In this document: in pieces, positions 19,350-30,187 of the stretch
Position numbering within the stretch: the first letter of the stretch is position 1
Layout: every line of letters starts with the position of its first letter
Assembly (NCBI RefSeq): GCF_058153355.1
Contig: NZ_CM177019.1
Reading direction: 5' to 3' (one strand)
DNA length: 64,000 bases
The notes under the pieces: generated by a model
What the model was told of the DNA's origin: nothing
What the model saw: the letters and a program-made list of their open reading frames with translations, nothing else
The model's database searches: none
Translations under genes and position numbers: made by a program

Positions 19350-22026
19350 CGAACCCTTACGTCCCGACCCCGATCGTCTGCTGGAACAAACTGCCGCGCC
19401 GCACCGGGGGAAGCTGAAAGTTTTTTTCGGTGCCTGTGCAGGCGTCGGGAAGACCTGGGCGATGCTGGCAGAAGCCCAACGACTGCGGGCGCAAGGGCTG
19501 GATATTGTGGTTGGCGTGGTTGAAACTCACGGACGGAAAGATACCGCCGCAATGCTGGAAGGGCTGGCTGTTCTGCCGCTAAAACGCCAGGCGTACCGTG
19601 GGCGGCATATCAGCGAGTTTGATCTCGATGCCGCCCTCGCCCGCCGTCCGGCGCTGATCTTAATGGACGAACTGGCGCACAGTAATGCGCCAGGTTCTCG
19701 TCATCCTAAACGCTGGCAGGACATTGAAGAGCTGCTGGAAGCAGGCATTGATGTTTTCACTACCGTCAACGTTCAGCATCTGGAAAGTCTGAATGATGTG
19801 GTCAGTGGCGTCACCGGAATTCAGGTACGGGAAACCGTGCCCGATCCTTTTTTTGATGCTGCCGACGACGTGGTGCTGGTGGACTTGCCCCCGGACGATC
19901 TGCGCCAGCGGCTGAAAGAAGGCAAAGTCTATATTGCCGGGCAGGCGGAGCGCGCCATTGAACACTTTTTCCGCAAAGGCAATCTGATCGCCCTGCGCGA
20001 ACTGGCACTGCGCCGTACTGCCGATCGCGTAGATGAGCAAATGCGCGCCTGGCGGGGGCATCCTGGCAAAGAGAAAGTCTGGCACACGCGCGACGCGATC
20101 CTTTTATGTATTGGGCATAACACCGGCAGCGAAAAACTGGTCCGCGCGGCGGCGCGGTTGGCGTCACGGCTGGGGAGCATCTGGCACGCGGTGTATGTTG
20201 AAACCCCTGCCCTGCACCGCTTACCGGAGAAAAAACGTCGGGCAATTCTCAGCGCCTTACGTCTGGCGCAGGAGCTGGGCGCGGAGACGGCAACACTTTC
20301 TGATCCAGCGGAAGAGAAAGCGGTAGTGCGTTATGCCCGTGAACATAATCTCGGCAAGATTATTCTCGGTCGCCCGGCCTCGCGCCGCTGGTGGCGTCGG
20401 GAAACGTTTGCTGACCGACTGGCGCGAATCGCCCCCGATCTCGATCAGGTGCTGGTCGCGCTTGATGAACCACCCGCCCGCACGATTAACAACGCGCCGG
20501 ATAGCCGCTCTTTTAAAGACAAGTGGCGGGTACAGATTCAGGGATGCGTGGTTGCCGCCGCGTTATGCGCCGTTATCACCTTAATTGCCATGCAGTGGCT
20601 GATGGCGTTTGATGCCGCCAACCTAGTGATGCTGTATCTGCTTGGCGTGGTGGTGGTGGCGCTATTTTATGGACGCTGGCCTTCGGTGCTTGCTACCGTC
20701 ATTAATGTGGTGAGTTTCGATCTCTTTTTTATCGCCCCACGCGGCACGCTCGCCGTCTCTGATGTGCAGTATCTGCTGACTTTCGCGGTGATGTTAACCG
20801 TCGGGCTGGTGATCGGGAATCTTACTGCTGGCGTACGTTATCAGGCGCGGGTAGCCCGTTACCGCGAGCAACGCACACGACACTTATATGAAATGTCGAA
20901 AGCTCTGGCTGTGGGACGCAGTCCGCAGGACATCGCCGCCACCAGCGAACAATTTATTGCTTCCACGTTTCATGCCCGCAGTCAGGTGTTGTTGCCCGAT
21001 GACAACGGCAAATTGCAGCCGTTGACACATCCGCAAGGAATGACGCCGTGGGACGATGCCATCGCGCAATGGAGTTTTGATAAAGGCCTGCCTGCGGGCG
21101 CGGGCACCGACACGTTACCCGGTGTGCCATACCAGATTTTGCCGTTAAAAAGCGGCGAGAAAACCTACGGACTGGTGGTGGTGGAACCGGGGAATCTGCG
21201 CCAGTTGATGATCCCGGAACAGCAACGCCTGCTGGAGACGTTCACGCTGTTAGTTGCCAATGCCCTGGAACGCCTGGCACTGACCGCCAGCGAAGAACAG
21301 GCGCGGATGGCAAGCGAACGAGAACAGATCCGCAACGCCCTGCTGGCGGCGCTTTCGCATGATTTACGCACGCCGCTTACGGTGCTGTTCGGTCAGGCAG
21401 AAATCTTAACGCTCGATCTGGCAAGCGAAGGATCGCCTCACGCCCGCCAGGCCAGCGAGATTCGTCAGCATGTGCTGAACACGACCCGACTGGTGAATAA
21501 TCTACTGGATATGGCGCGAATTCAGTCCGGCGGCTTTAATTTGAAGAAAGAGTGGTTAACGCTGGAAGAAGTGGTCGGCAGCGCGCTGCAAATGCTGGAA
21601 CCGGGTTTATCCTCGCCCATCAACCTTTCTCTGCCAGAACCGCTGACCTTAATCCACGTTGACGGGCCACTCTTTGAACGGGTGCTGATTAATCTGCTGG
21701 AGAACGCGGTGAAATACGCGGGTGCGCAGGCCGAAATTGGTATCGATGCCCACGTTGAGGGCGAAAATCTACAACTGGATGTCTGGGATAACGGCCCCGG
21801 TCTTCCACAAGGCCTGGAGCAGGCGATATTCGATAAGTTTGCTCGTGGAAATAAAGAGTCGGCGGTGCCGGGCGTTGGGCTTGGGCTGGCAATTTGTCGG
21901 GCGATTGTGGATGTACACGACGGCACCATTACCGCGTTCAACCGACCGCAAGGTGGTGCCTGTTTTCGTGTTACACTTCCCCAGCAAACTGCCCCTGAAC
22001 TTGAAGAATTTCATGAGGATATGTGA
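19342..22026 (+). CDS. kdpD: Sensor histidine kinase KdpD
   Basis: 894 aa from [14 protein letters not shown]; histidine-kinase H-box (LSHDLRTPL) and ATPase motifs; start overlaps kdpC stop. Confidence 0.9.
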
Positions 22027-22700
22027 CAAACGTTCTGATTGTTGAAGATGAACAGGCTATTCGTCGCTTTCTGCGCACAGCGCTGGAGGGCGATGGGATG
22101 CGCGTCTTTGAGGCCGAAACGCTGCAACGCGGCTTGCTGGAAGCGGCAACCCGTAAGCCAGATTTGATTATTCTCGATCTCGGCCTGCCAGACGGTGATG
22201 GGATTGAGTTTATCCGCGACCTGCGCCAGTGGAGCGCGGTGCCAGTAATTGTGCTTTCCGCCCGCAGCGAAGAGAGCGACAAAATCGCCGCGCTGGATGC
22301 CGGAGCGGATGATTACCTGAGTAAGCCATTTGGTATTGGCGAATTACAGGCCCGTCTGCGCGTTGCTTTACGCCGCCACTCTGCTACCACCGCGCCCGAT
22401 CCGCTGGTGAAATTTTCTGATGTTACCGTCGATTTAGCCGCCCGCGTAATCCACCGCGGCGAGGAAGAGGTGCACCTCACACCGCTTGAGTTCCGCCTGC
22501 TGGCGGTGCTGCTCAACAACGCCGGAAAAGTGCTCACCCAGCGCCAGCTCCTCAACCAGGTGTGGGGGCCAAATGCGGTCGAACACAGCCACTATTTGCG
22601 TATATATATGGGGCATCTGCGACAAAAACTGGAGCAAGATCCCGCCCGCCCTCGCCATTTTATTACTGAAACCGGTATTGGGTATCGGTTTATGCTTTGA
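22023..22700 (+). CDS. kdpE: Response regulator KdpE (OmpR family)
   Basis: 225 aa; receiver domain plus winged-helix; overlaps kdpD stop by 4 bp. Confidence 0.9.
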   Translation: MTNVLIVEDEQAIRRFLRTALEGDGMRVFEAETLQRGLLEAATRKPDLIILDLGLPDGDGIEFIRDLRQWSAVPVIVLSARSEESDKIAALDAGADDYLSKPFGIGELQARLRVALRRHSATTAPDPLVKFSDVTVDLAARVIHRGEEEVHLTPLEFRLLAVLLNNAGKVLTQRQLLNQVWGPNAVEHSHYLRIYMGHLRQKLEQDPARPRHFITETGIGYRFML

Positions 22701-22933
22701 ATGTTAATTTTAATATATCCTGTCTTTTATTAATTAAAGCCGTAATAATAAATACGGCTTTTTATCTTAAACAACACACAAAAATAACAATTCAATATTT
22801 TATATTACTGAGTGAAAAACTCATCATTAAATAAATTAAGGTTGATCATTTTTTATTGATCACCTTCACAGTTCAACCGTATTTTCTGGATAGAATACCT
22901 TCACCTTCATTCACATCAGGAAAGGTAAATCAA

Positions 22934-23038
22934 ATGGAAAACAACAGCCGCACTATGCCCCATATAAGGCGGACAACCCATATTATGAAGTTTGCTCATC
23001 GTAATAGCTTCGACTTTCACTTCTTCAATGCCCGTTAG
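22934..23038 (+). CDS. speFL: speF leader (ornithine-sensing arrest peptide) SpeFL
   Basis: 34-aa ORF MENNSRTMPHIRRTTHIMKFAHRNSFDFHFFNAR about 260 bp upstream of speF. Confidence 0.75.
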   Translation: MENNSRTMPHIRRTTHIMKFAHRNSFDFHFFNAR

Positions 23039-23295
23039 TCTGTCGACTAAGGGCACTTCAGCGTACAGGTCTTCCTGACTCTCTGTATTACAGGCATACG
23101 CCTGTATTCCGCAGTGCTCATTCTCTGTTAACCCTTATATTATCAGCCACCGGACTGGTAAGGGTTTCTGCATTCTGAAAAAAGCAATCTACTGATTTAT
23201 TTATCAGCGGGGTAACTTTGCTTTTTTTCCGGCACGATCGATTTCTCATTCGAGAAATTGAGGACCTGCTATTACCTAAACTAAAGAGATGAAAA

Positions 23296-25494
23296 ATGTC
23301 AAAATTAAAAATTGCGGTTAGTGATTCTTGCCCGGACTGTTTTACCACGCAGCGAGAATGTATCTATATTAATGAAAACAGTAATATCGATGTGGCGGCA
23401 ATAGTTTTATCGATCAACGATGTTGCACGAGGAAAACTCGATGAAATCGATGCCACGGGTTATGGCATCCCGGTATTTATTGCTACTGAAGATAAAGAAC
23501 GTGTACCCGCAGAGTATTTGCCCCGTATTTCGGGTGTATTTGAGAATTGCGAATCACGACGAGAATTTTATGGTCGTCAGTTAGAAACCGCAGCCAGCCA
23601 TTATGAAACTCAACTGCGCCCGCCCTTCTTCCGCGCACTGGTCGATTATGTCAATCAGGGCAATAGCGCTTTTGACTGCCCGGGTCATCAGGGGGGTGAG
23701 TTTTTCCGTCGCCATCCGGCAGGCAATCAGTTCGTGGAATATTTTGGCGAAATGCTCTTCCGCTCCGACTTGTGTAATGCCGACGTAGCAATGGGCGATC
23801 TACTGATTCATGAAGGTGCGCCATGCATTGCACAGCAACATGCGGCTAAAGTGTTTAATGCCGATAAAACGTACTTTGTTTTAAACGGCACCTCCTCTTC
23901 CAACAAAGTGGTTTTAAACGCCCTGCTAACACCGGGTGATCTGGTGCTGTTTGACCGCAATAACCATAAGTCTAACCACCACGGGGCCTTGCTACAGGCT
24001 GGTGCAACACCGGTTTATCTGGAAACAGCACGTAACCCGTATGGTTTTATCGGTGGTATTGATGCGCACTGCTTCGAAGAAAGTTATCTGCGTGAACTGA
24101 TTAGAGAAGTTGCACCGCAACGGGCAAAAGAGGCGCGTCCGTTCCGCCTCGCTGTGATTCAGTTAGGCACCTACGACGGTACTATTTATAACGCCCGCCA
24201 GGTGGTGGATAAAATCGGTCATCTGTGTGACTACATCCTGTTTGACTCAGCATGGGTCGGCTATGAACAGTTTATTCCGATGATGGCGGACTGTTCGCCG
24301 CTGCTACTGGAGCTTAATGAGAACGATCCGGGTATTCTGGTTACGCAATCTGTACATAAGCAGCAGGCTGGTTTTTCTCAGACTTCACAAATTCATAAAA
24401 AAGACAGCCATATCAAAGGGCAACAGCGTTATGTACCGCACAAACGCATGAACAACGCCTTTATGATGCACGCCTCCACCAGCCCGTTCTATCCGCTGTT
24501 TGCCGCACTGGATATTAACGCCAAAATGCATGAAGGTGTCAGCGGTCGTAATATGTGGATGGATTGTGTGGTTAACGGTATTAATGCCCGCAAATTGATC
24601 CTCGATAACTGCCAGCACATTCGTCCGTTCGTTCCTGAACTGGTGGATGGTAAACCCTGGCAATCGTATGAAACAGCGCAAATTGCGGTTGATCTGCGCT
24701 TCTTTAAATTTGTACCCGGTGAGCACTGGCATTCTTTTGAAGGTTACGCAGAGAATCAATACTTTGTCGATCCGTGCAAACTGTTGCTGACAACCCCAGG
24801 TATTGATGCACGTAACGGCGAATACGAAGCGTTCGGTGTACCCGCGACGATTCTTGCTAACTTCCTGCGCGAAAATGGCGTAGTGCCGGAAAAATGCGAT
24901 CTTAACTCCATCCTCTTCCTGCTGACTCCGGCAGAAGATATGGCCAAACTGCAGCAACTTGTTGCCCTGCTGGTACGCTTCGAAAAACTACTGGAAGCTG
25001 ATGCGCCTCTGGCGGAAGTATTGCCTTCCATCTACAAACAGCATGAAGAGCGCTACGCCGGTTATACCCTGCGTCAGTTGTGCCAGGAAATGCATGATTT
25101 GTATGCCCGTCACAACGTGAAACAACTGCAAAAAGAGATGTTCCGTAAGGAACACTTCCCACGCGTCAGCATGAATCCACAGGAAGCCAACTATGCCTAC
25201 TTACGCGGTGAAGTGGAATTGGTTCGTCTGCCGGATGCAGAAGGCCGTATCGCAGCCGAAGGTGCGCTTCCTTATCCTCCGGGTGTGCTGTGTGTTGTTC
25301 CGGGTGAAATCTGGGGTGGTGCTGTTCTGCGTTACTTCAGCGCTCTGGAAGAAGGGATCAATCTGCTGCCAGGTTTTGCACCGGAGCTGCAGGGTGTCTA
25401 TATCGAAGAACATGATGGTCGTAAGCAAGTTTGGTGCTATGTCATCAAGCCTCGTGATGCGCAAAGCACCCTGTTGAAAGGGGAAAAATTATGA
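23296..25494 (+). CDS. speF: Inducible ornithine decarboxylase
   Basis: 732-aa ORF followed by overlapping potE. Confidence 0.9.
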   Translation: MSKLKIAVSDSCPDCFTTQRECIYINENSNIDVAAIVLSINDVARGKLDEIDATGYGIPVFIATEDKERVPAEYLPRISGVFENCESRREFYGRQLETAASHYETQLRPPFFRALVDYVNQGNSAFDCPGHQGGEFFRRHPAGNQFVEYFGEMLFRSDLCNADVAMGDLLIHEGAPCIAQQHAAKVFNADKTYFVLNGTSSSNKVVLNALLTPGDLVLFDRNNHKSNHHGALLQAGATPVYLETARNPYGFIGGIDAHCFEESYLRELIREVAPQRAKEARPFRLAVIQLGTYDGTIYNARQVVDKIGHLCDYILFDSAWVGYEQFIPMMADCSPLLLELNENDPGILVTQSVHKQQAGFSQTSQIHKKDSHIKGQQRYVPHKRMNNAFMMHASTSPFYPLFAALDINAKMHEGVSGRNMWMDCVVNGINARKLILDNCQHIRPFVPELVDGKPWQSYETAQIAVDLRFFKFVPGEHWHSFEGYAENQYFVDPCKLLLTTPGIDARNGEYEAFGVPATILANFLRENGVVPEKCDLNSILFLLTPAEDMAKLQQLVALLVRFEKLLEADAPLAEVLPSIYKQHEERYAGYTLRQLCQEMHDLYARHNVKQLQKEMFRKEHFPRVSMNPQEANYAYLRGEVELVRLPDAEGRIAAEGALPYPPGVLCVVPGEIWGGAVLRYFSALEEGINLLPGFAPELQGVYIEEHDGRKQVWCYVIKPRDAQSTLLKGEKL

Positions 25495-26810
25495 GTCAGG
25501 CTAAATCGAACAAAATGGGCGTCGTTCAGTTAACCATACTGACGATGGTCAACATGATGGGCTCCGGCATCATCATGCTGCCGACAAAGCTTGCCGAAGT
25601 TGGGACAATCTCAATAATCTCCTGGTTGGTGACAGCCGTAGGCTCAATGGCGCTGGCATGGGCATTCGCAAAATGCGGTATGTTCAGCCGTAAATCAGGC
25701 GGTATGGGCGGTTATGCCGAGTATGCTTTCGGTAAATCCGGTAACTTTATGGCGAACTATACCTACGGCGTCTCGCTGCTGATTGCTAACGTGGCGATTG
25801 CTATTTCGGCAGTTGGTTACGGCACCGAACTGCTCGGCGCGAGTTTGTCACCAGTGCAGATTGGTCTGGCAACCATCGGAGTGCTGTGGATTTGTACCGT
25901 GGCTAACTTTGGTGGTGCGCGCATTACCGGGCAAATCAGTAGCATTACCGTGTGGGGGGGCATTATTCCGGTGGTAGGCTTGTGCGTTATCGGCTGGTTC
26001 TGGTTTAGCCCGACACTTTACGTTGATTCCTGGAATCCGCATCATGCACCGTTCTTCAGTGCGGTAGGTTCTTCCATCGCCATGACGCTGTGGGCTTTTC
26101 TTGGTCTGGAGTCTGCGTGTGCGAATACTGATGTAGTGGAAAACCCGGAACGTAATGTGCCAATCGCGGTACTCGGCGGTACGTTAGGTGCGGCGGTGAT
26201 TTATATCGTCTCCACCAACGTGATTGCCGGGATTGTGCCCAATATGGAGCTGGCAAATTCAACGGCACCATTTGGTCTGGCCTTCGCGCAAATGTTCACA
26301 CCGGAAGTGGGTAAAGTCATTATGGCGCTGATGGTGATGTCCTGCTGCGGTTCGCTACTTGGCTGGCAGTTCACCATTGCCCAGGTGTTTAAATCTTCAT
26401 CTGATGAAGGCTACTTCCCTAAAATTTTCTCCCGTGTAACCAAAGTGGATGCACCGGTTCAGGGGATGTTGACCATTGTGATTATTCAGAGTGGATTGGC
26501 ACTGATGACCATTAGCCCGTCACTGAACAGCCAGTTCAACGTGCTGGTTAACCTGGCCGTGGTGACCAATATCATCCCATATATTCTGTCGATGGCGGCA
26601 TTAGTCATTATTCAGAAGGTCGCCAATGTGCCACCATCAAAAGCGAAAGTAGCAAACTTTGTTGCCTTTGTTGGTGCGATGTACAGTTTCTATGCGCTGT
26701 ACTCATCCGGGGAAGAAGCCATGCTGTACGGTTCCATCGTGACTTTCCTTGGTTGGACACTGTATGGTCTGGTATCACCACGCTTTGAACTGAAAAACAA
26801 ACACGGTTAA
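25491..26810 (+). CDS. potE: Putrescine/ornithine antiporter
   Basis: 439-aa APC-family transporter; start overlaps speF stop. Confidence 0.9.
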   Translation: MSQAKSNKMGVVQLTILTMVNMMGSGIIMLPTKLAEVGTISIISWLVTAVGSMALAWAFAKCGMFSRKSGGMGGYAEYAFGKSGNFMANYTYGVSLLIANVAIAISAVGYGTELLGASLSPVQIGLATIGVLWICTVANFGGARITGQISSITVWGGIIPVVGLCVIGWFWFSPTLYVDSWNPHHAPFFSAVGSSIAMTLWAFLGLESACANTDVVENPERNVPIAVLGGTLGAAVIYIVSTNVIAGIVPNMELANSTAPFGLAFAQMFTPEVGKVIMALMVMSCCGSLLGWQFTIAQVFKSSSDEGYFPKIFSRVTKVDAPVQGMLTIVIIQSGLALMTISPSLNSQFNVLVNLAVVTNIIPYILSMAALVIIQKVANVPPSKAKVANFVAFVGAMYSFYALYSSGEEAMLYGSIVTFLGWTLYGLVSPRFELKNKHG

Positions 26811-26825
26811 TAAAGCGAAATAAAA

Positions 26826-26856
26826 AAGGGCGATTGAATGATCGCCCTTTCTGTTT
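26826..26856 (+). terminator. Rho-independent terminator after potE
   Basis: gggcgat...atcgccc hairpin followed by T-rich tract. Confidence 0.6.
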
Positions 26857-26894
26857 GTTGACAAAGAGTTCGTTATTTATGCCGCATCCGGCAG

Positions 26895-27034
26895 GTGTAG
26901 GGTCCAAACGCGGTCGAACACAGCAACTATTTGCGTAATTATATGAGGCATTTGCGACAAAAACTGGAACAGGATCTCGTCCGCCCCGCCATTTCATTAC
27001 TGAAACCGGTATTGGGTATCGGTTTATGCTTTGA
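26895..27034 (+). repeat. Diverged duplicate of the kdpE 3' end (last ~140 bp including stop)
   Basis: Aligns to 22561-22700 at roughly 85-90% identity, ending in the identical aaaccggtattgggtatcggtttatgctttga. Confidence 0.85.
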
Positions 27035-27157
27035 AAAAAGTGGCAATGTATGGATAAAGTCATTTTTTATTCAAATATAAGGAACTTAATATTTAAAAAA
27101 TGTCCCATACAATGCCTCATCATAAATGACACCGTAGCACACAAGGAGCAAGTAGCG

Positions 27158-27808
27158 ATGCGTGAAGTGAGTCAGTTAGTAAATACTGAAGATTCAGCCT
27201 GGCCAATAATCCAGAATTGGTTAAAAGAAGCCACAAACCATGCCGAACTCTTACCGGTTAATAAAGATTTAGCCGAAACCGCGCTTTATCAATTACAGGT
27301 TACAACAAAATCACCGATGGGTGCGCTTGTCTATGGCTCCGGAGGTCTGCTGATTGATAACGGTTGGTTACGCATAGCAGGCTCTGGTCACCCCCGGTTA
27401 CCACGAGATCCAGCAAGTTGGACACAACGCCCTGAATTCGCAAGCGTGCGGGCTTTACCCATCGCCGATGATGTCGCAGGGGGAATTTTTGCTCTTAATG
27501 GTGGCGATCTTGGGGAAGATACTGGCTGCGTTTATTATTTTGCGCCAGATACGCTGAATTGGGAAAGTCTGGAGGTTGGATATTCTGAGTTTCTTCAGTG
27601 GGCATTATCCGGTGATTTAGATACCTTCTATGAAAATGTACGCTGGCCGCAATGGCAAGAAGACGTAATAAAATTATCGGCAACGGAAGCCTTCACTTTC
27701 TACCCTTTCTTATGGGTACAAAGTGAAGAAGCAAGAACAAGAAAAGTTATTTCGCTTACTGAACTCTGGGAAATGCAGTATCAAATGAAAGAAACAATCA
27801 CGCAATAA
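27158..27808 (+). CDS. DUF2625-family protein (YbfG-like), apparently intact
   Basis: 216-aa ORF from MREVSQLVNTEDS preceded by AAGGAG; maximal ORF starts at 27050. Confidence 0.6.
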   Translation: MREVSQLVNTEDSAWPIIQNWLKEATNHAELLPVNKDLAETALYQLQVTTKSPMGALVYGSGGLLIDNGWLRIAGSGHPRLPRDPASWTQRPEFASVRALPIADDVAGGIFALNGGDLGEDTGCVYYFAPDTLNWESLEVGYSEFLQWALSGDLDTFYENVRWPQWQEDVIKLSATEAFTFYPFLWVQSEEARTRKVISLTELWEMQYQMKETITQ

Positions 27809-27848: not shown

Positions 27849-28343
27849 TTAATGTGTGTTTATCGCTTTCAATTCTTGCTGGCAATTTTCTGACTGACAG
27901 CGTCGCAACTCAATAATCCCGACATGCATCATCGAGCCAAAAAATCCGCTTTCGCTGACATAATCCTCATTAACTATCGGTCGAGTGCCGGGCTTACCCT
28001 GGCAAATCCCCATAAAAAATGAGGTGTAGCATTGCCATTCAGGATTTAAACCGGTCTTTTCTTGTGCTGACATATCATGAAGATAAGTAAGTTCTTTTTC
28101 GTTCCCGCCTGACAACTGCCAGCGGCGGGTATTATCAGGTAAGTTATCGCCACGGCAATTTGTCTTACACCGGGAAGGCGCAATATTTACCGCAATGCTA
28201 CCCGTTAATCCTCTGGTTTTATCTTTAGGGGTCAGTAACCAGTCACCAGCTAATGATGATTGTTCAGGTTGGGCGCATGCTGTCAGCAGTAGTGTGGCGG
28301 TAATTAATGCCACTCTGACGACCAGACTCCTTTTGGTCTTCAT
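27849..28343 (-). CDS. ybfP: Lipoprotein YbfP
   Basis: 164 aa from MKTKRSLVVRVALITATLLLTAC (lipobox). Confidence 0.75.
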   Translation of the reverse strand: MKTKRSLVVRVALITATLLLTACAQPEQSSLAGDWLLTPKDKTRGLTGSIAVNIAPSRCKTNCRGDNLPDNTRRWQLSGGNEKELTYLHDMSAQEKTGLNPEWQCYTSFFMGICQGKPGTRPIVNEDYVSESGFFGSMMHVGIIELRRCQSENCQQELKAINTH

Positions 28344-28394
28344 TTTGAATTCCCTTGAGCTATTCAGTTTGTTGGCAAAGTACTCGTTGTTCAT

Positions 28395-28493
28395 GCCGGA
28401 TGCGGCGTGAACGCCTTATCCGTCCTACAAAATAGTGCAAATTCAATATATTGCACCATCCTCGTAGGCCTGATGAACGTAGCGTATCAGGCT
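28395..28493. repeat. REP/BIME cluster (two inverted REP units)
   Basis: gccggatgcggcgtgaacgccttatccg..cctac and gtaggcctgatgaacgtagcgtatcaggc. Confidence 0.8.
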
Positions 28494-28546
28494 ATCATAA
28501 GTAAAAAGGGCGATCTTCCGACCGCCCTTTTTCTTATTTAATGTGT

Positions 28547-30187
28547 TTACGCGTTTTTCAGAACTTCGCTAACAATCTCAACCGCTTCTTTCTCGATCTG
28601 CTTGCGATGTTCTTCACCGAGGAAGCTTTCGCAGTAGATTTTGTATGCGTCTTCCGTGCCTGACGGACGCGCGGCGAACCAGCCGTTGTCAGTCATCACT
28701 TTCAGACCGCCAATAGAAGCACCGTTGCCCGGTGCCGCCGTCAGGCGCGCGGTGATCGGGTCACCAGCCAGGGTGCTGGCGCTCACCATTTCCGGAGACA
28801 GCTTAGACAGCGCCGCTTTTTGCGCGGAAGTCGCAGCTGCCTGCAAACGGTTATAGCTCGGCGCACCAAACCGTTTTGCCAGTTCGTTGTAGTGTTCCTG
28901 CGGGTTCTTACCGGTGACCGCGGTGATTTCTGCCGCCAGCAGACACATAATGATACCGTCTTTATCGGTGGACCACGGCGTGCCGTCGAAACGCAGGAAG
29001 GAAGCCCCTGCGCTCTCTTCGCCGCCAAAGCCGAAGCTGCCGTCGAACAGACCATCAACAAACCATTTGAAGCCTACCGGGACTTCTACCAGCTTACGGC
29101 CCAAATCATTGACCACACGGTCGATCATCGCAGATGAAACCAGCGTTTTACCGACAGCAACATCTTTGCCCCACTGCGGACGATGCTGGAACAGGTAGTT
29201 GATCGCCACTGCCAGGTAATGGTTAGGATTCATCAAACCTGCCGGAGTGACGATACCGTGACGGTCATAATCCGGGTCGTTAGCAAACGCCAGATCGAAC
29301 TTATCACGCAGTGCCAGCAGACCCGCCATCGCACACTCGGAGGAGCAGTCCATACGGATCGCGCCGTCTTTATCAAGGTGCATAAAGCGGAAGGTTTGAT
29401 CGACCTGATCGTTAACGATGGTCAGGTTGAGGTTGTAATACTCGCCAATGCGCTTCCAGTATTCAATACCGGAACCGCCCAGCGGATCAACGCCCAGCGT
29501 CAGGCCCGCTTTCTGAATCGCCGCCATATCAACTATATCGGCCAGACCTTCCACAAACGGCTGCACCAGATCCTGCTCTTTCACATGACCGGATGCCATC
29601 GCTTCGTCGAGGGAGATACGCTTCACACCTTTCAGGCCATCGGCCATCAGTGCGTTGGCCCTGTCCTCCACCACTTTGGTGACGTTAGTATCAGCCGGGC
29701 CACCATTTGGTGGATTGTACTTGATACCACCATCTTCCGGCGGGTTATGGGACGGTGTAATCACGATACCGTCTGCCAGCGGGCCACCTTTTTTATTGTG
29801 AACCAGGATGGCATTGGAAACGGCAGGCGTCGGAGTGAAGCCATTGTTTTCCTGCACAATAACATCTACGCCGTTCGCTGCCAGCACTTCCAGTACGGAA
29901 ATGAACGCAGGCTCGGACAGGGCGTGAGTATCTTTACCCACATAGCAAGGGCCAGTGATGCCGTTTTTCGCACGTTCTTCAGCAATTGCCTGAGCGATCG
30001 CCAGAATATGCGGCTCGTTAAAGCTGTGGCGCGCTGCACTGCCACGGTGACCGGAAGTACCGAATTTCACCGCGTGCTCCGCATTCCCTGCTTCTGGTTT
30101 CAGTACATAGTATTGCGCCGTCAGTTGGGCGACGTTAATCAAATCACTCTGTTGTGCAGGTTGGCCTGCACGATTGTGGATTGCCAT
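28547..30187 (-). CDS. pgm: Phosphoglucomutase
   Basis: 546 aa from [13 protein letters not shown]; active-site TPSHNP motif. Confidence 0.9.

What the first reader, a model, noticed from the sequence alone, without database searches (positions are those of the whole stretch)
22561..27034. Diverged direct repeat of the kdpE 3' end brackets the speFL-speF-potE block
The last ~140 bp of kdpE (22561-22700) recur at 26895-27034 just after the potE terminator with many substitutions, yet both copies end in the identical aaaccggtattgggtatcggtttatgctttga. Everything between the repeats is the speFL-speF-potE unit. This looks like an ancient insertion of the inducible ornithine decarboxylase cassette into or next to the kdpE terminus with target duplication, and could still mediate deletion or exchange of the cassette.
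Basis: seen in the sequence. Interest (0 to 1): 0.55.

Follow-up and report, generated by a model that had tools for sequence, protein, structure and literature searches.

The report
ybfI, a leftover kdpE tail
The second copy of the kdpE 3' end is real, but it is the already annotated dead gene fragment ybfI; it travels with the optional ybfG-ybfP segment carried by about a third of E. coli strains, not with the speF-potE genes, and its only demonstrated effect is to allow rare deletion of speF-potE.

Summary
The repeat is confirmed. Window 22557-22701 (last 48 codons of kdpE plus one base) recurs at 26892-27035 with 131/145 identical positions. The second copy has an in-frame TAG, missense changes and a 1-nt deletion. 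It is the annotated pseudogene ybfI (b4636 in K-12).

The proposed origin, speF-potE cassette insertion with target duplication, is only partly supported.
- 29 of 80 other enterobacterial species carry speF(-potE) between kdpE and pgm, none with a kdpE duplicate.
- About 59% of 5,426 complete E. coli genomes have kdpE-speFL-speF-potE-pgm with no ybfI.
- ybfI occurs only in the ~34% that also carry ybfG-ybfP. It forms the left edge of that ~1.7-kb optional segment and abuts a truncated REP.
- Two more direct-repeat pairs (B1/B2, and terminators T1/T2) show the locus is a mosaic of two alternative kdpE-pgm arrangements joined by illegitimate recombination.

Strain CUWW10 lacks exactly the 4,429 bp between the repeats compared with near-identical XYEH3934, with the crossover in the last 19 shared bases.

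Verdict: a known pseudogene and an ordinary recombination scar; low interest.

The parts
22023..22700 (+). kdpE, intact response-regulator gene (225 aa)
   Evidence: ORF; PGAP annotation of the matching IAI39 locus; 100% protein identity to K-12 and IAI39 KdpE
22557..22701 (+). Repeat copy A1: last 48 codons of kdpE plus 1 base
22736..22761 (+). kdpE intrinsic-terminator-like hairpin
   Evidence: inverted repeat I5
22934..23038 (+). speFL leader peptide gene (34 aa)
   Evidence: translation; annotation of the homologous position
23296..25494 (+). speF, inducible ornithine decarboxylase
25491..26810 (+). potE, putrescine-ornithine antiporter
26823..26850 (.). Terminator T1 (loop TTGAATGA). It is one base different from the single potE/pgm terminator of E. 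albertii and is a diverged paralogue of T2.
   Evidence: (D3, I1)
26851..26891 (+). B1: about 30 nt copied from the region just upstream of ybfP, followed by a truncated, flipped REP head (GCCGCATCCGG). It forms the junction between the potE side and ybfI.
   Evidence: 0 of 1000 shuffles reach the observed score; only about 2 copies per genome
26892..27035 (+). Repeat copy A2 = pseudogene ybfI: 3' fragment of a kdpE gene with an in-frame TAG, missense changes and a 1-nt deletion
   Evidence: annotated as ybfI b4636 in K-12 and as an incomplete winged-helix pseudogene by PGAP
27158..27808 (+). ybfG (DUF2625 protein), intact here but a pseudogene in K-12. It belongs to the optional segment.
27849..28343 (-). 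ybfP lipoprotein gene, part of the optional segment
28365..28405 (+). B2: native copy of the B repeat, just upstream of the ybfP start codon and running into the first REP of the BIME
28395..28492 (.). BIME (two REPs). The same element lies directly after kdpE in Escherichia lineages that lack speF-potE.
   Evidence: Rfam ES036/naRNA4 hits
28505..28532 (.). Terminator T2 (loop CTTCCGAC), the pgm-side terminator, identical in type to that of L003 and E. whittamii
28547..30187 (-). pgm, the conserved convergent neighbour of kdpE across Enterobacterales

Best explanation
The second copy is ybfI, a dead 3' fragment of a kdpE gene.

Shown: it is not part of the speF-potE block. It is the left edge of an optional ~1.7-kb segment (B1, ybfI, ybfG, ybfP, B2, BIME, T2) that about one third of E. 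coli genomes carry between the potE terminator and pgm.

Inferred: two alternative arrangements of the kdpE-pgm interval once coexisted. One had kdpE followed by speFL-speF-potE-T1, as in E. albertii. The other had kdpE followed directly by ybfG-ybfP-B-BIME-T2. Illegitimate recombination at a REP head joined the DNA downstream of the potE terminator to the middle of the second allele's kdpE, with a homologous crossover elsewhere. This is homology-facilitated illegitimate recombination or unequal exchange, not transposition. The truncated kdpE tail was carried along.

Shown: the fragment has since decayed neutrally. Four changes, including the stop codon, are shared by both haplogroups, and about five more are private to each. 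ybfI has no detectable function. As a 145-bp, ~90% identical direct repeat of the live kdpE end, it is a substrate for rare precise deletion of speFL-speF-potE. The B and T repeat pairs likewise account for the other arrangements seen in the population.
For: Identity as ybfI: K-12 annotation, PGAP pseudogene, disrupted frame.

Linkage to ybfG-ybfP rather than speF-potE:
- The whole block is present in 1,847 of 5,426 genomes.
- About 1,860 genomes have two copies of the repeat.
- 3,191 genomes have potE followed directly by pgm; O157:H7, ST131 and O103 strains have only the kdpE copy.
- The alignment places ybfI inside the segment that separates the two types.

Comparative data:
- The convergent kdpE/pgm adjacency is widespread.
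- 29 of 80 species carry speF after kdpE, none with a duplicate.
- ybfP was found only in E. coli among those loci. The nearest non-E. coli YbfG homologues are about 55% identical.

Mosaic signature:
- T1 matches the E. albertii terminator to one base.
- T2 and the BIME match the speF-less Escherichia loci L003 and L004.
- B1 is a significant copy of the ybfP-upstream sequence B2.
- The junction next to ybfI is a truncated REP head.

Neutral decay: ybfI differs by 11/145 (0.076) between the two haplogroups, against ybfG Ks 0.081. The shared and private changes are read.

Deletion substrate: CUWW10 versus XYEH3934.

No mobile-element genes or terminal inverted repeats. No RNA family hit and no excess of promoter-like sites in ybfI.
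Against: - The order of events cannot be proven from the structure. The same architecture arises if a circular or linear piece carrying kdpE-3'/speF-potE/T1/B1 entered a kdpE-ybfG-ybfP ancestor.
- Two genomes do have kdpE directly followed by ybfG. For one of them, GF4-3, I could not show a recent deletion.
- At least two illegitimate joins (T1|B1 and B1|ybfI) are required, so the history involves more than one step.
- No extant lineage outside E. coli with a native kdpE-ybfG-ybfP arrangement was found.
E. fergusonii, E. marmotae, E. ruysiae, Shigella and Salmonella were not among the 80 loci.
- The role of the REP in the join is inferred from position only.
Confidence: 0.7

Rival explanations
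1. An ancestor had kdpE directly followed by ybfG-ybfP. A piece carrying its own kdpE 3' end plus speFL-speF-potE, taken from a genome where speF-potE already lay after kdpE, integrated by a single crossover within the kdpE 3' homology (Campbell type) or by homology-facilitated illegitimate recombination. This duplicated the kdpE end; ybfI is then the displaced original end.
For: The architecture is formally identical: A1, cassette, A2, then the native ybfG flank. Genomes with kdpE directly followed by ybfG exist, and GF4-3 has no close relative with the standard arrangement. speF-potE lies after kdpE in many possible donors.
Against: - CUWW10 is demonstrably a recent deletion, not an ancestor. 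GF4-3 is equally compatible with a deletion whose crossover lay in the identical tail.
- speF-potE alleles at this locus are older (Ks 0.14-0.25) than the ybfI-ybfG-ybfP block (0.08-0.12). speF-potE is also shared with E. albertii at the same site, with the same terminator.
- 59% of E. coli genomes have speF-potE without ybfI.
- The B1 fragment between T1 and ybfI needs an extra step.
- It is not a target-site duplication in the transposition sense: 145 bp, no transposase, no inverted repeats.
Confidence: 0.2
2. In-place tandem duplication of a segment beginning inside kdpE, followed by loss or replacement of most of one copy. Under this model both copies derive from the same resident kdpE, and all differences arose after the duplication.
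For: REP sequences are known join points of tandem duplications (own knowledge: Shyamala, Schneider and Ames 1990), and the ybfI left junction is at a REP head. The four stem changes on ybfI are mostly non-synonymous, as expected if the divergence is post-duplication decay.
Against: The DNA following the two copies is entirely different: speFL-speF-potE after one, ybfG-ybfP after the other. The two terminators belong to different lineage types, E. albertii type versus L003/E. whittamii type. This fits a fusion of two alleles better than duplication of one. A duplication model needs additional replacement events.
Confidence: 0.07
3. ybfI is retained because it is functional, for example as a small ORF encoding the KdpE 'wing', a promoter or insulator for ybfG, or a regulatory RNA.
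For: The 3' tail is identical to kdpE over 40 nt in this window. Weak promoter-like matches lie at 27031-27060 and 27086-27113.
Against: - Divergence between haplogroups equals the neutral rate of the neighbouring genes.
- The frame is broken differently in different strains: the 1-nt deletion is only in the window type, and the stop codon is shared.
- The identical tail is not conserved in K-12.
- There is no Rfam hit, and promoter-like sites are at the shuffle expectation.
- Two thirds of E. coli genomes lack it.
Confidence: 0.03

Closest known systems
ybfI (b4636), annotated pseudogene of E. coli K-12 between potE and ybfG
   Same: It is the same feature: same position, same flanks, same kdpE C-terminal homology and a disrupted frame.
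   Different: The window carries the other haplogroup (IAI39-like), with a 1-nt deletion and five private substitutions. It is 92.4% identical to the K-12 copy.
icdC / e14: displaced 3' gene fragment left when the e14 element integrated into icd in E. coli K-12 (own knowledge: Hill et al. 1989; not tested here)
   Same: A diverged direct repeat of the 3' end of a gene brackets inserted DNA. One copy completes the live gene; the other is a pseudogene fragment.
   Different: e14 is a prophage with an integrase and att sites. Here the bracketed DNA holds only speFL, speF and potE, with no integrase or att core, and the junction is at a REP.
Homology-facilitated illegitimate recombination, and REP-associated duplication join points (own knowledge: de Vries and Wackernagel 2002; Shyamala et al. 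1990)
   Same: One end is anchored in homologous flanking DNA and the other joined at a non-homologous site. Here that site is a REP head fused to mid-kdpE with 3-nt (CAG) overlap.
   Different: The mechanism is inferred from the scar only. No experimental or intermediate evidence was obtained, and at least two joins are needed.
Short-homology direct-repeat deletion of chromosomal segments
   Same: In CUWW10 the 145-bp repeats produced a precise deletion of the intervening 4,429 bp.
   Different: The crossover used only the last 19 identical bases, below the usual minimum for efficient RecA-dependent exchange, and this is the position that keeps kdpE intact. Whether that reflects mechanism or selection is unknown.

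Membership tests
ybfI pseudogene (E. coli K-12 b4636) | Lies between potE and ybfG, downstream of the potE terminator | tested here: met
   Window 26892-27035 aligns column for column with the K-12 ybfI region and its flanks
ybfI pseudogene (E. coli K-12 b4636) | Homologous to the C-terminal (winged-helix) end of KdpE, with a disrupted reading frame | tested here: met
   131/145 nt identical to kdpE; in-frame TAG and frameshift; PGAP note 'incomplete, missing N-terminus'
Transposon or IS insertion with target-site duplication | Short (about 2-14 bp) identical duplication flanking an element with terminal inverted repeats and a transposase | tested here: not met
   The repeat is 145 bp and 90% identical. 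No inverted repeats lie at 22702 or 26891. The only genes between the copies are speFL, speF and potE.
Integrase-mediated island at the 3' end of a gene (attL/attR, e14-icd type) | Tyrosine or serine recombinase gene next to one att site, and mobile-element genes in the insert | tested here: not met
   No recombinase is annotated or visible as an ORF in 22702-26891. The same cassette sits at this site in 29 other species without att-like repeats.
Integrase-mediated island at the 3' end of a gene (attL/attR, e14-icd type) | Conserved identical core shared by both att copies | tested here: not met
   The 40-nt identical tail in the window is interrupted by two differences in K-12
Direct repeats acting as a deletion substrate | Natural derivative lacking exactly one repeat plus the intervening DNA, in an otherwise identical background | tested here: met
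   CUWW10 versus XYEH3934: 4,429 bp missing; flanks differ by 1 in 5,444 and 0 in 5,301 bases; switch from kdpE-type to ybfI-flank sequence after the last discriminating site
REP/BIME-associated illegitimate recombination junction | Novel joint located at or within a REP element | tested here: met
   The ybfI left boundary is GCCGCATCCGGCAG|GTGTAG; the 12-mer is the reverse complement of the REP head that follows B2
REP/BIME-associated illegitimate recombination junction | Demonstrated involvement of REP-binding or REP-cleaving activity (gyrase, RAYT) in forming the joint | not testable with these tools
   Requires experiment

The most novel reading that the evidence does not exclude
The kdpE-pgm interval of E. 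coli could be a REP/BIME-seeded modular hotspot. Three nested direct-repeat pairs (A: kdpE tail, 145 bp; B: ybfP-upstream plus REP head, ~40 bp; T: terminators, ~30 bp) would make speF-potE and ybfG-ybfP independently and recurrently excisable. The repeat scars, ybfI included, would then be retained because this gain/loss flexibility of the acid-inducible ornithine decarboxylase system is itself advantageous, i.e. second-order selection for a contingency locus rather than a passive relic.
Probability: 0.05. Interest if true: 0.45.

Novelty: already known. Interest (0 to 1): 0.18.

Why it matters
There is little at stake for biology at large: the feature is an annotated pseudogene and a recombination scar. 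It has modest value for E. coli genome evolution.
- The kdpE-pgm interval is shown to be polymorphic, with at least five arrangements in 5,426 genomes.
- The inducible ornithine decarboxylase/antiporter pair is absent from about 5% of strains.
- ybfI belongs to the ybfG-ybfP accessory segment, not to speF-potE.
- There is a clean natural example of a gene-preserving deletion through a 145-bp diverged repeat.

For annotation, ybfI should not be read as evidence that speF-potE is a mobile cassette.

Tried and rejected
- Transposition or integrase models: no inverted repeats, transposase or integrase.
- A conserved att-like core in the identical 3' tail: rejected, because K-12 differs at two tail positions.
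- Natural diverged relatives of the ybfI-ybfG-ybfP block. Logan contigs L088-L090 are 86-88% identical, but L088 differs only by transitions and L089/L090 almost only by C-to-T. They look like mutagenesis or conversion artefacts. Megablast found no close relative in the E. coli collection. I therefore did not use them.
- B as a dispersed repeat family: rejected, with a median of 2 copies per genome.
- RNA families and promoter scans over ybfI: nothing beyond chance.
- Literature searches for ybfI, b4636, ybfG/ybfP/kdpE: only unrelated B. subtilis ybfI papers and chance string matches. The 'already known' status therefore rests on the K-12 and PGAP annotations, not on a paper.
- Gene conversion between kdpE and ybfI. 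Some synonymous variants are shared between ybfI alleles and kdpE alleles of other strains, but not within the same genome for the window or K-12. This is inconclusive.
- Type 3 (R32_14_1F, N96) as a recent B1 x B2 deletion. Its B allele carries three private changes and is B2-like from its first base. It is therefore an old allele, and I could not decide whether it is an intermediate or a derivative.
Full report
**1. Observation**

Reading the two stretches and aligning them confirms the repeat. Window 22557-22701 recurs at 26892-27035 with 131 identical positions in 145 columns and one 1-nt gap. The repeat finder reports the same pair at a spacing of 4,334-4,335 nt.

The first copy is the last 48 codons of kdpE (ORF 22023-22700) plus one base. 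The second translates as QV*GPNAVEHSNYLRNYMRHL..., with an in-frame TAG, several missense changes and then a frameshift. Homology starts at CAG|GTG within kdpE and ends one base after the stop codon; the flanks are unrelated.

The last 40 nt are identical in this window. That is a post-hoc probability of about 0.01 given 14 differences. K-12 has two differences in the same tail, so it is not a conserved core.

**2. What it is called**

The E. coli collection shows that the second copy is annotated. It is pseudogene ybfI (b4636) in K-12 MG1655, between potE and ybfG. PGAP records it as 'winged helix-turn-helix domain-containing protein, incomplete, missing N-terminus' in IAI39, XYEH3934 and others.

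The window is closest to phylogroup-F-like strains such as IAI39, whose ybfI is 100% identical. No paper on the E. coli ybfI was found in the held library.

**3. Comparison with other species**

A scan of one genome per species with KdpE returned 80 loci.
- Across Pantoea, Serratia, Dickeya, Yersinia, Buttiauxella and many Enterobacteriaceae, kdpE and pgm are convergent neighbours, often about 50 nt apart.
- 29 of the 80 loci carry speF (28 of them also potE) between kdpE and pgm. These include E. albertii, several Citrobacter, Enterobacter, Kluyvera, Leclercia and Atlantibacter.
- None has a second copy of its own kdpE 3' end or of the E. coli one.
- ybfP was found only in E. coli. The nearest non-E. 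coli YbfG homologues are about 55% identical.
- Two Escherichia lineages, E. whittamii and the GTDB-separated 'E. coli' SCPM-O-B-8794, have kdpE-BIME-T2-pgm with neither speF-potE nor ybfG-ybfP.
- Klebsiella indica keeps a 66-nt potE 3' remnant right after kdpE, so speF-potE has also been lost by deletion.

Where speF-potE is missing, kdpE abuts pgm, not the gene that follows ybfI.

**4. Variation within E. coli**

Chimeric junction queries against 5,426 complete genomes show at least five arrangements.

| Type | Arrangement | Genomes |
|---|---|---|
| 1 | kdpE-speFL-speF-potE-T-pgm; no ybfI, ybfG or ybfP (includes O157:H7, O103 and ST131 strains) | about 3,189 (59%) |
| 2 | The window, K-12 and IAI39 arrangement, with ybfI-ybfG-ybfP | 1,847 (34%) |
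| 3 | potE-T1-B-BIME-T2-pgm | 2 |
| 4 | kdpE directly followed by ybfG-ybfP | 2 |
| 5 | kdpE (TAG stop)-BIME-ybfP-B-BIME-T2-pgm; no speF-potE or ybfG | 247 (4.6%) |

There are also IS1-mediated deletions. The number of genomes with two copies of the repeat (about 1,860) matches the number carrying the ybfG-ybfP block. ybfI therefore travels with ybfG-ybfP, not with speF-potE.

**5. Anatomy of the mosaic**

Relative to type 1, type 2 contains an extra ~1.7 kb that runs from the loop of the potE terminator to the loop of the pgm terminator. ybfI lies inside this extra DNA.
- The potE-side terminator T1 (26823-26850) differs by one base from the single terminator of E. albertii.
- The pgm-side terminator T2 (28505-28532) and the adjacent BIME match those of the speF-less Escherichia lineages.
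- Between T1 and ybfI lies B1 (26851-26891). It is a copy of about 30 nt that otherwise occurs just upstream of the ybfP start codon (B2, 28365-28405), followed by a truncated REP head. 0 of 1,000 shuffles reach the observed score in two genomes, and there are about two copies per genome.
- The REP 12-mer next to ybfI is the exact reverse complement of the one after B2.

The locus thus reads as A1 ... T1 B1 | A2 ... B2 BIME T2. That is a left part of the E. albertii type fused to a right part of the speF-less type whose kdpE was cut at CAG|GTG and joined to a REP.

The terminator of type 1 has the T1 left flank and the T2 loop, as expected for a T1 x T2 exchange. Type 3 has the T1|B junction but lacks ybfI-ybfG-ybfP. 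Its B allele is old, so its place in the history is open.

**6. Age and mode of evolution**

Both ybfI haplogroups share four changes absent from every kdpE allele examined: TGG>TAG, GGG>GGT, CAC>AAC and ATT>AAT. Each haplogroup has about five private changes.

Between the window and K-12, ybfI differs at 11 of 145 positions (0.076), the same as the synonymous divergence of ybfG (Ks 0.081). By contrast, kdpE and speF show Ks of 0.23-0.25. ybfI therefore evolves neutrally and is as old as the ybfG-ybfP block. That block coalesces more recently than the speF-potE alleles at the same locus.

Together with the presence of speF-potE-T1 at the same site in E. albertii, this favours speF-potE as the older resident and ybfI-ybfG-ybfP as the newcomer. 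The polarity is inferred, not proven.

**7. Does the repeat do anything?**

No Rfam family, no excess of promoter-like sites and no conserved frame were found in ybfI.

The one demonstrated effect is recombination. Strain CUWW10 has an intact kdpE followed directly by the ybfI-downstream flank. Compared with XYEH3934 it differs by 1 base in 5,444 on the left and 0 in 5,301 on the right, and it lacks exactly 4,429 bp. All discriminating sites up to GGC are kdpE-type, so the exchange lay in the final 19 shared bases.

GF4-3 has the same arrangement on a different background. Its closest relative in the collection is only 98.4% identical, so I could not show that its deletion is recent.

**8. Comparison with known systems and verdict**

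The feature is the known pseudogene ybfI. It resembles the displaced icd fragment left by e14 integration (own knowledge) in being a diverged 3' gene fragment bracketing inserted DNA. It fails the defining tests for an integrase island and for a transposon target duplication. The best mechanistic analogues are homology-facilitated illegitimate recombination and REP-associated join points (own knowledge); only the scar is observed here.

The finding is ordinary and already annotated.

**Limits**

Arrangement counts come from coverage thresholds of BLAST places, not from a phylogeny.

Noticed in passing
L017:10673-10850 (Klebsiella indica): Directly after the kdpE stop lies a 66-nt remnant of the potE 3' end (..FLGWTLYGLVSPRFELKNKHG*), followed by a REP and pgm. 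It is a scar showing that speF-potE was deleted in this lineage.
   Followed up: partly
L093:3145-3955 (E. coli MMC-J-0066) and 246 other genomes: A fifth E. coli arrangement lacks speF-potE and ybfG. kdpE ends in TAG as in E. whittamii, followed by a BIME, ybfP, B, a second BIME, T2 and pgm. About 4.6% of complete E. coli genomes therefore lack the inducible ornithine decarboxylase system.
   Followed up: partly
window 26851-26891 and 28365-28405: A second direct-repeat pair (B1/B2, ~30 nt plus a REP head) brackets ybfI-ybfG-ybfP. The REP 12-mer in B1 is the exact reverse complement of that in B2, i.e. a flipped quasi-palindrome.
   Followed up: yes
window 26823-26850 and 28505-28532; L091:5811-5866: The potE and pgm terminators are diverged paralogues: T1 is the E. 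albertii type and T2 the E. whittamii type. The single terminator of the majority E. coli arrangement is a T1-flank/T2-loop hybrid, which suggests it arose by T1 x T2 exchange.
   Followed up: partly
window 22023-25494 versus K-12 (L002): kdpE and speF of the window strain are unusually diverged from K-12 (Ks 0.23 and 0.25), compared with seqA 0.05 and pgm 0.14. The window's kdpE 3' end also differs from IAI39 at 9 of 145 synonymous positions, although its ybfI is identical to IAI39's. This points to recombinational import of the kdpE-speF stretch.
   Followed up: no
L085:5524-6221 (KL53) and L087:5768-6465 (ET846): Independent IS1-associated deletions remove speFL-speF-potE-ybfI and clip the start of ybfG.
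   Followed up: partly
L088, L089, L090 (Logan contigs): Contigs are 86-88% identical to the ybfI-ybfG-ybfP block but differ only by transitions (L088) or almost only by C-to-T (L089/L090). They look like mutagenesis or base-conversion data, not natural relatives.
   Followed up: partly
window 28389-28471: An Rfam ES036 (CssrF) hit above gathering score and a partial naRNA4 hit coincide with the BIME between ybfP and pgm. These 'sRNA' families are REP/BIME-derived.
   Followed up: no
L086:5445-6133 (XYEH3934) versus window 22701-23295: The kdpE-speFL-speF intergenic regions differ in length between strains by about 40-50 nt each. In some records they carry small, dubious annotated ORFs ('hypothetical protein', 'TonB-dependent receptor', 44 aa) that overlap speFL.
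   Followed up: no
L023:3251-5476 (Pseudocitrobacter faecalis): A speF homologue follows kdpE, but no potE was detected before pgm. This is a possible partial cassette.
   Followed up: no
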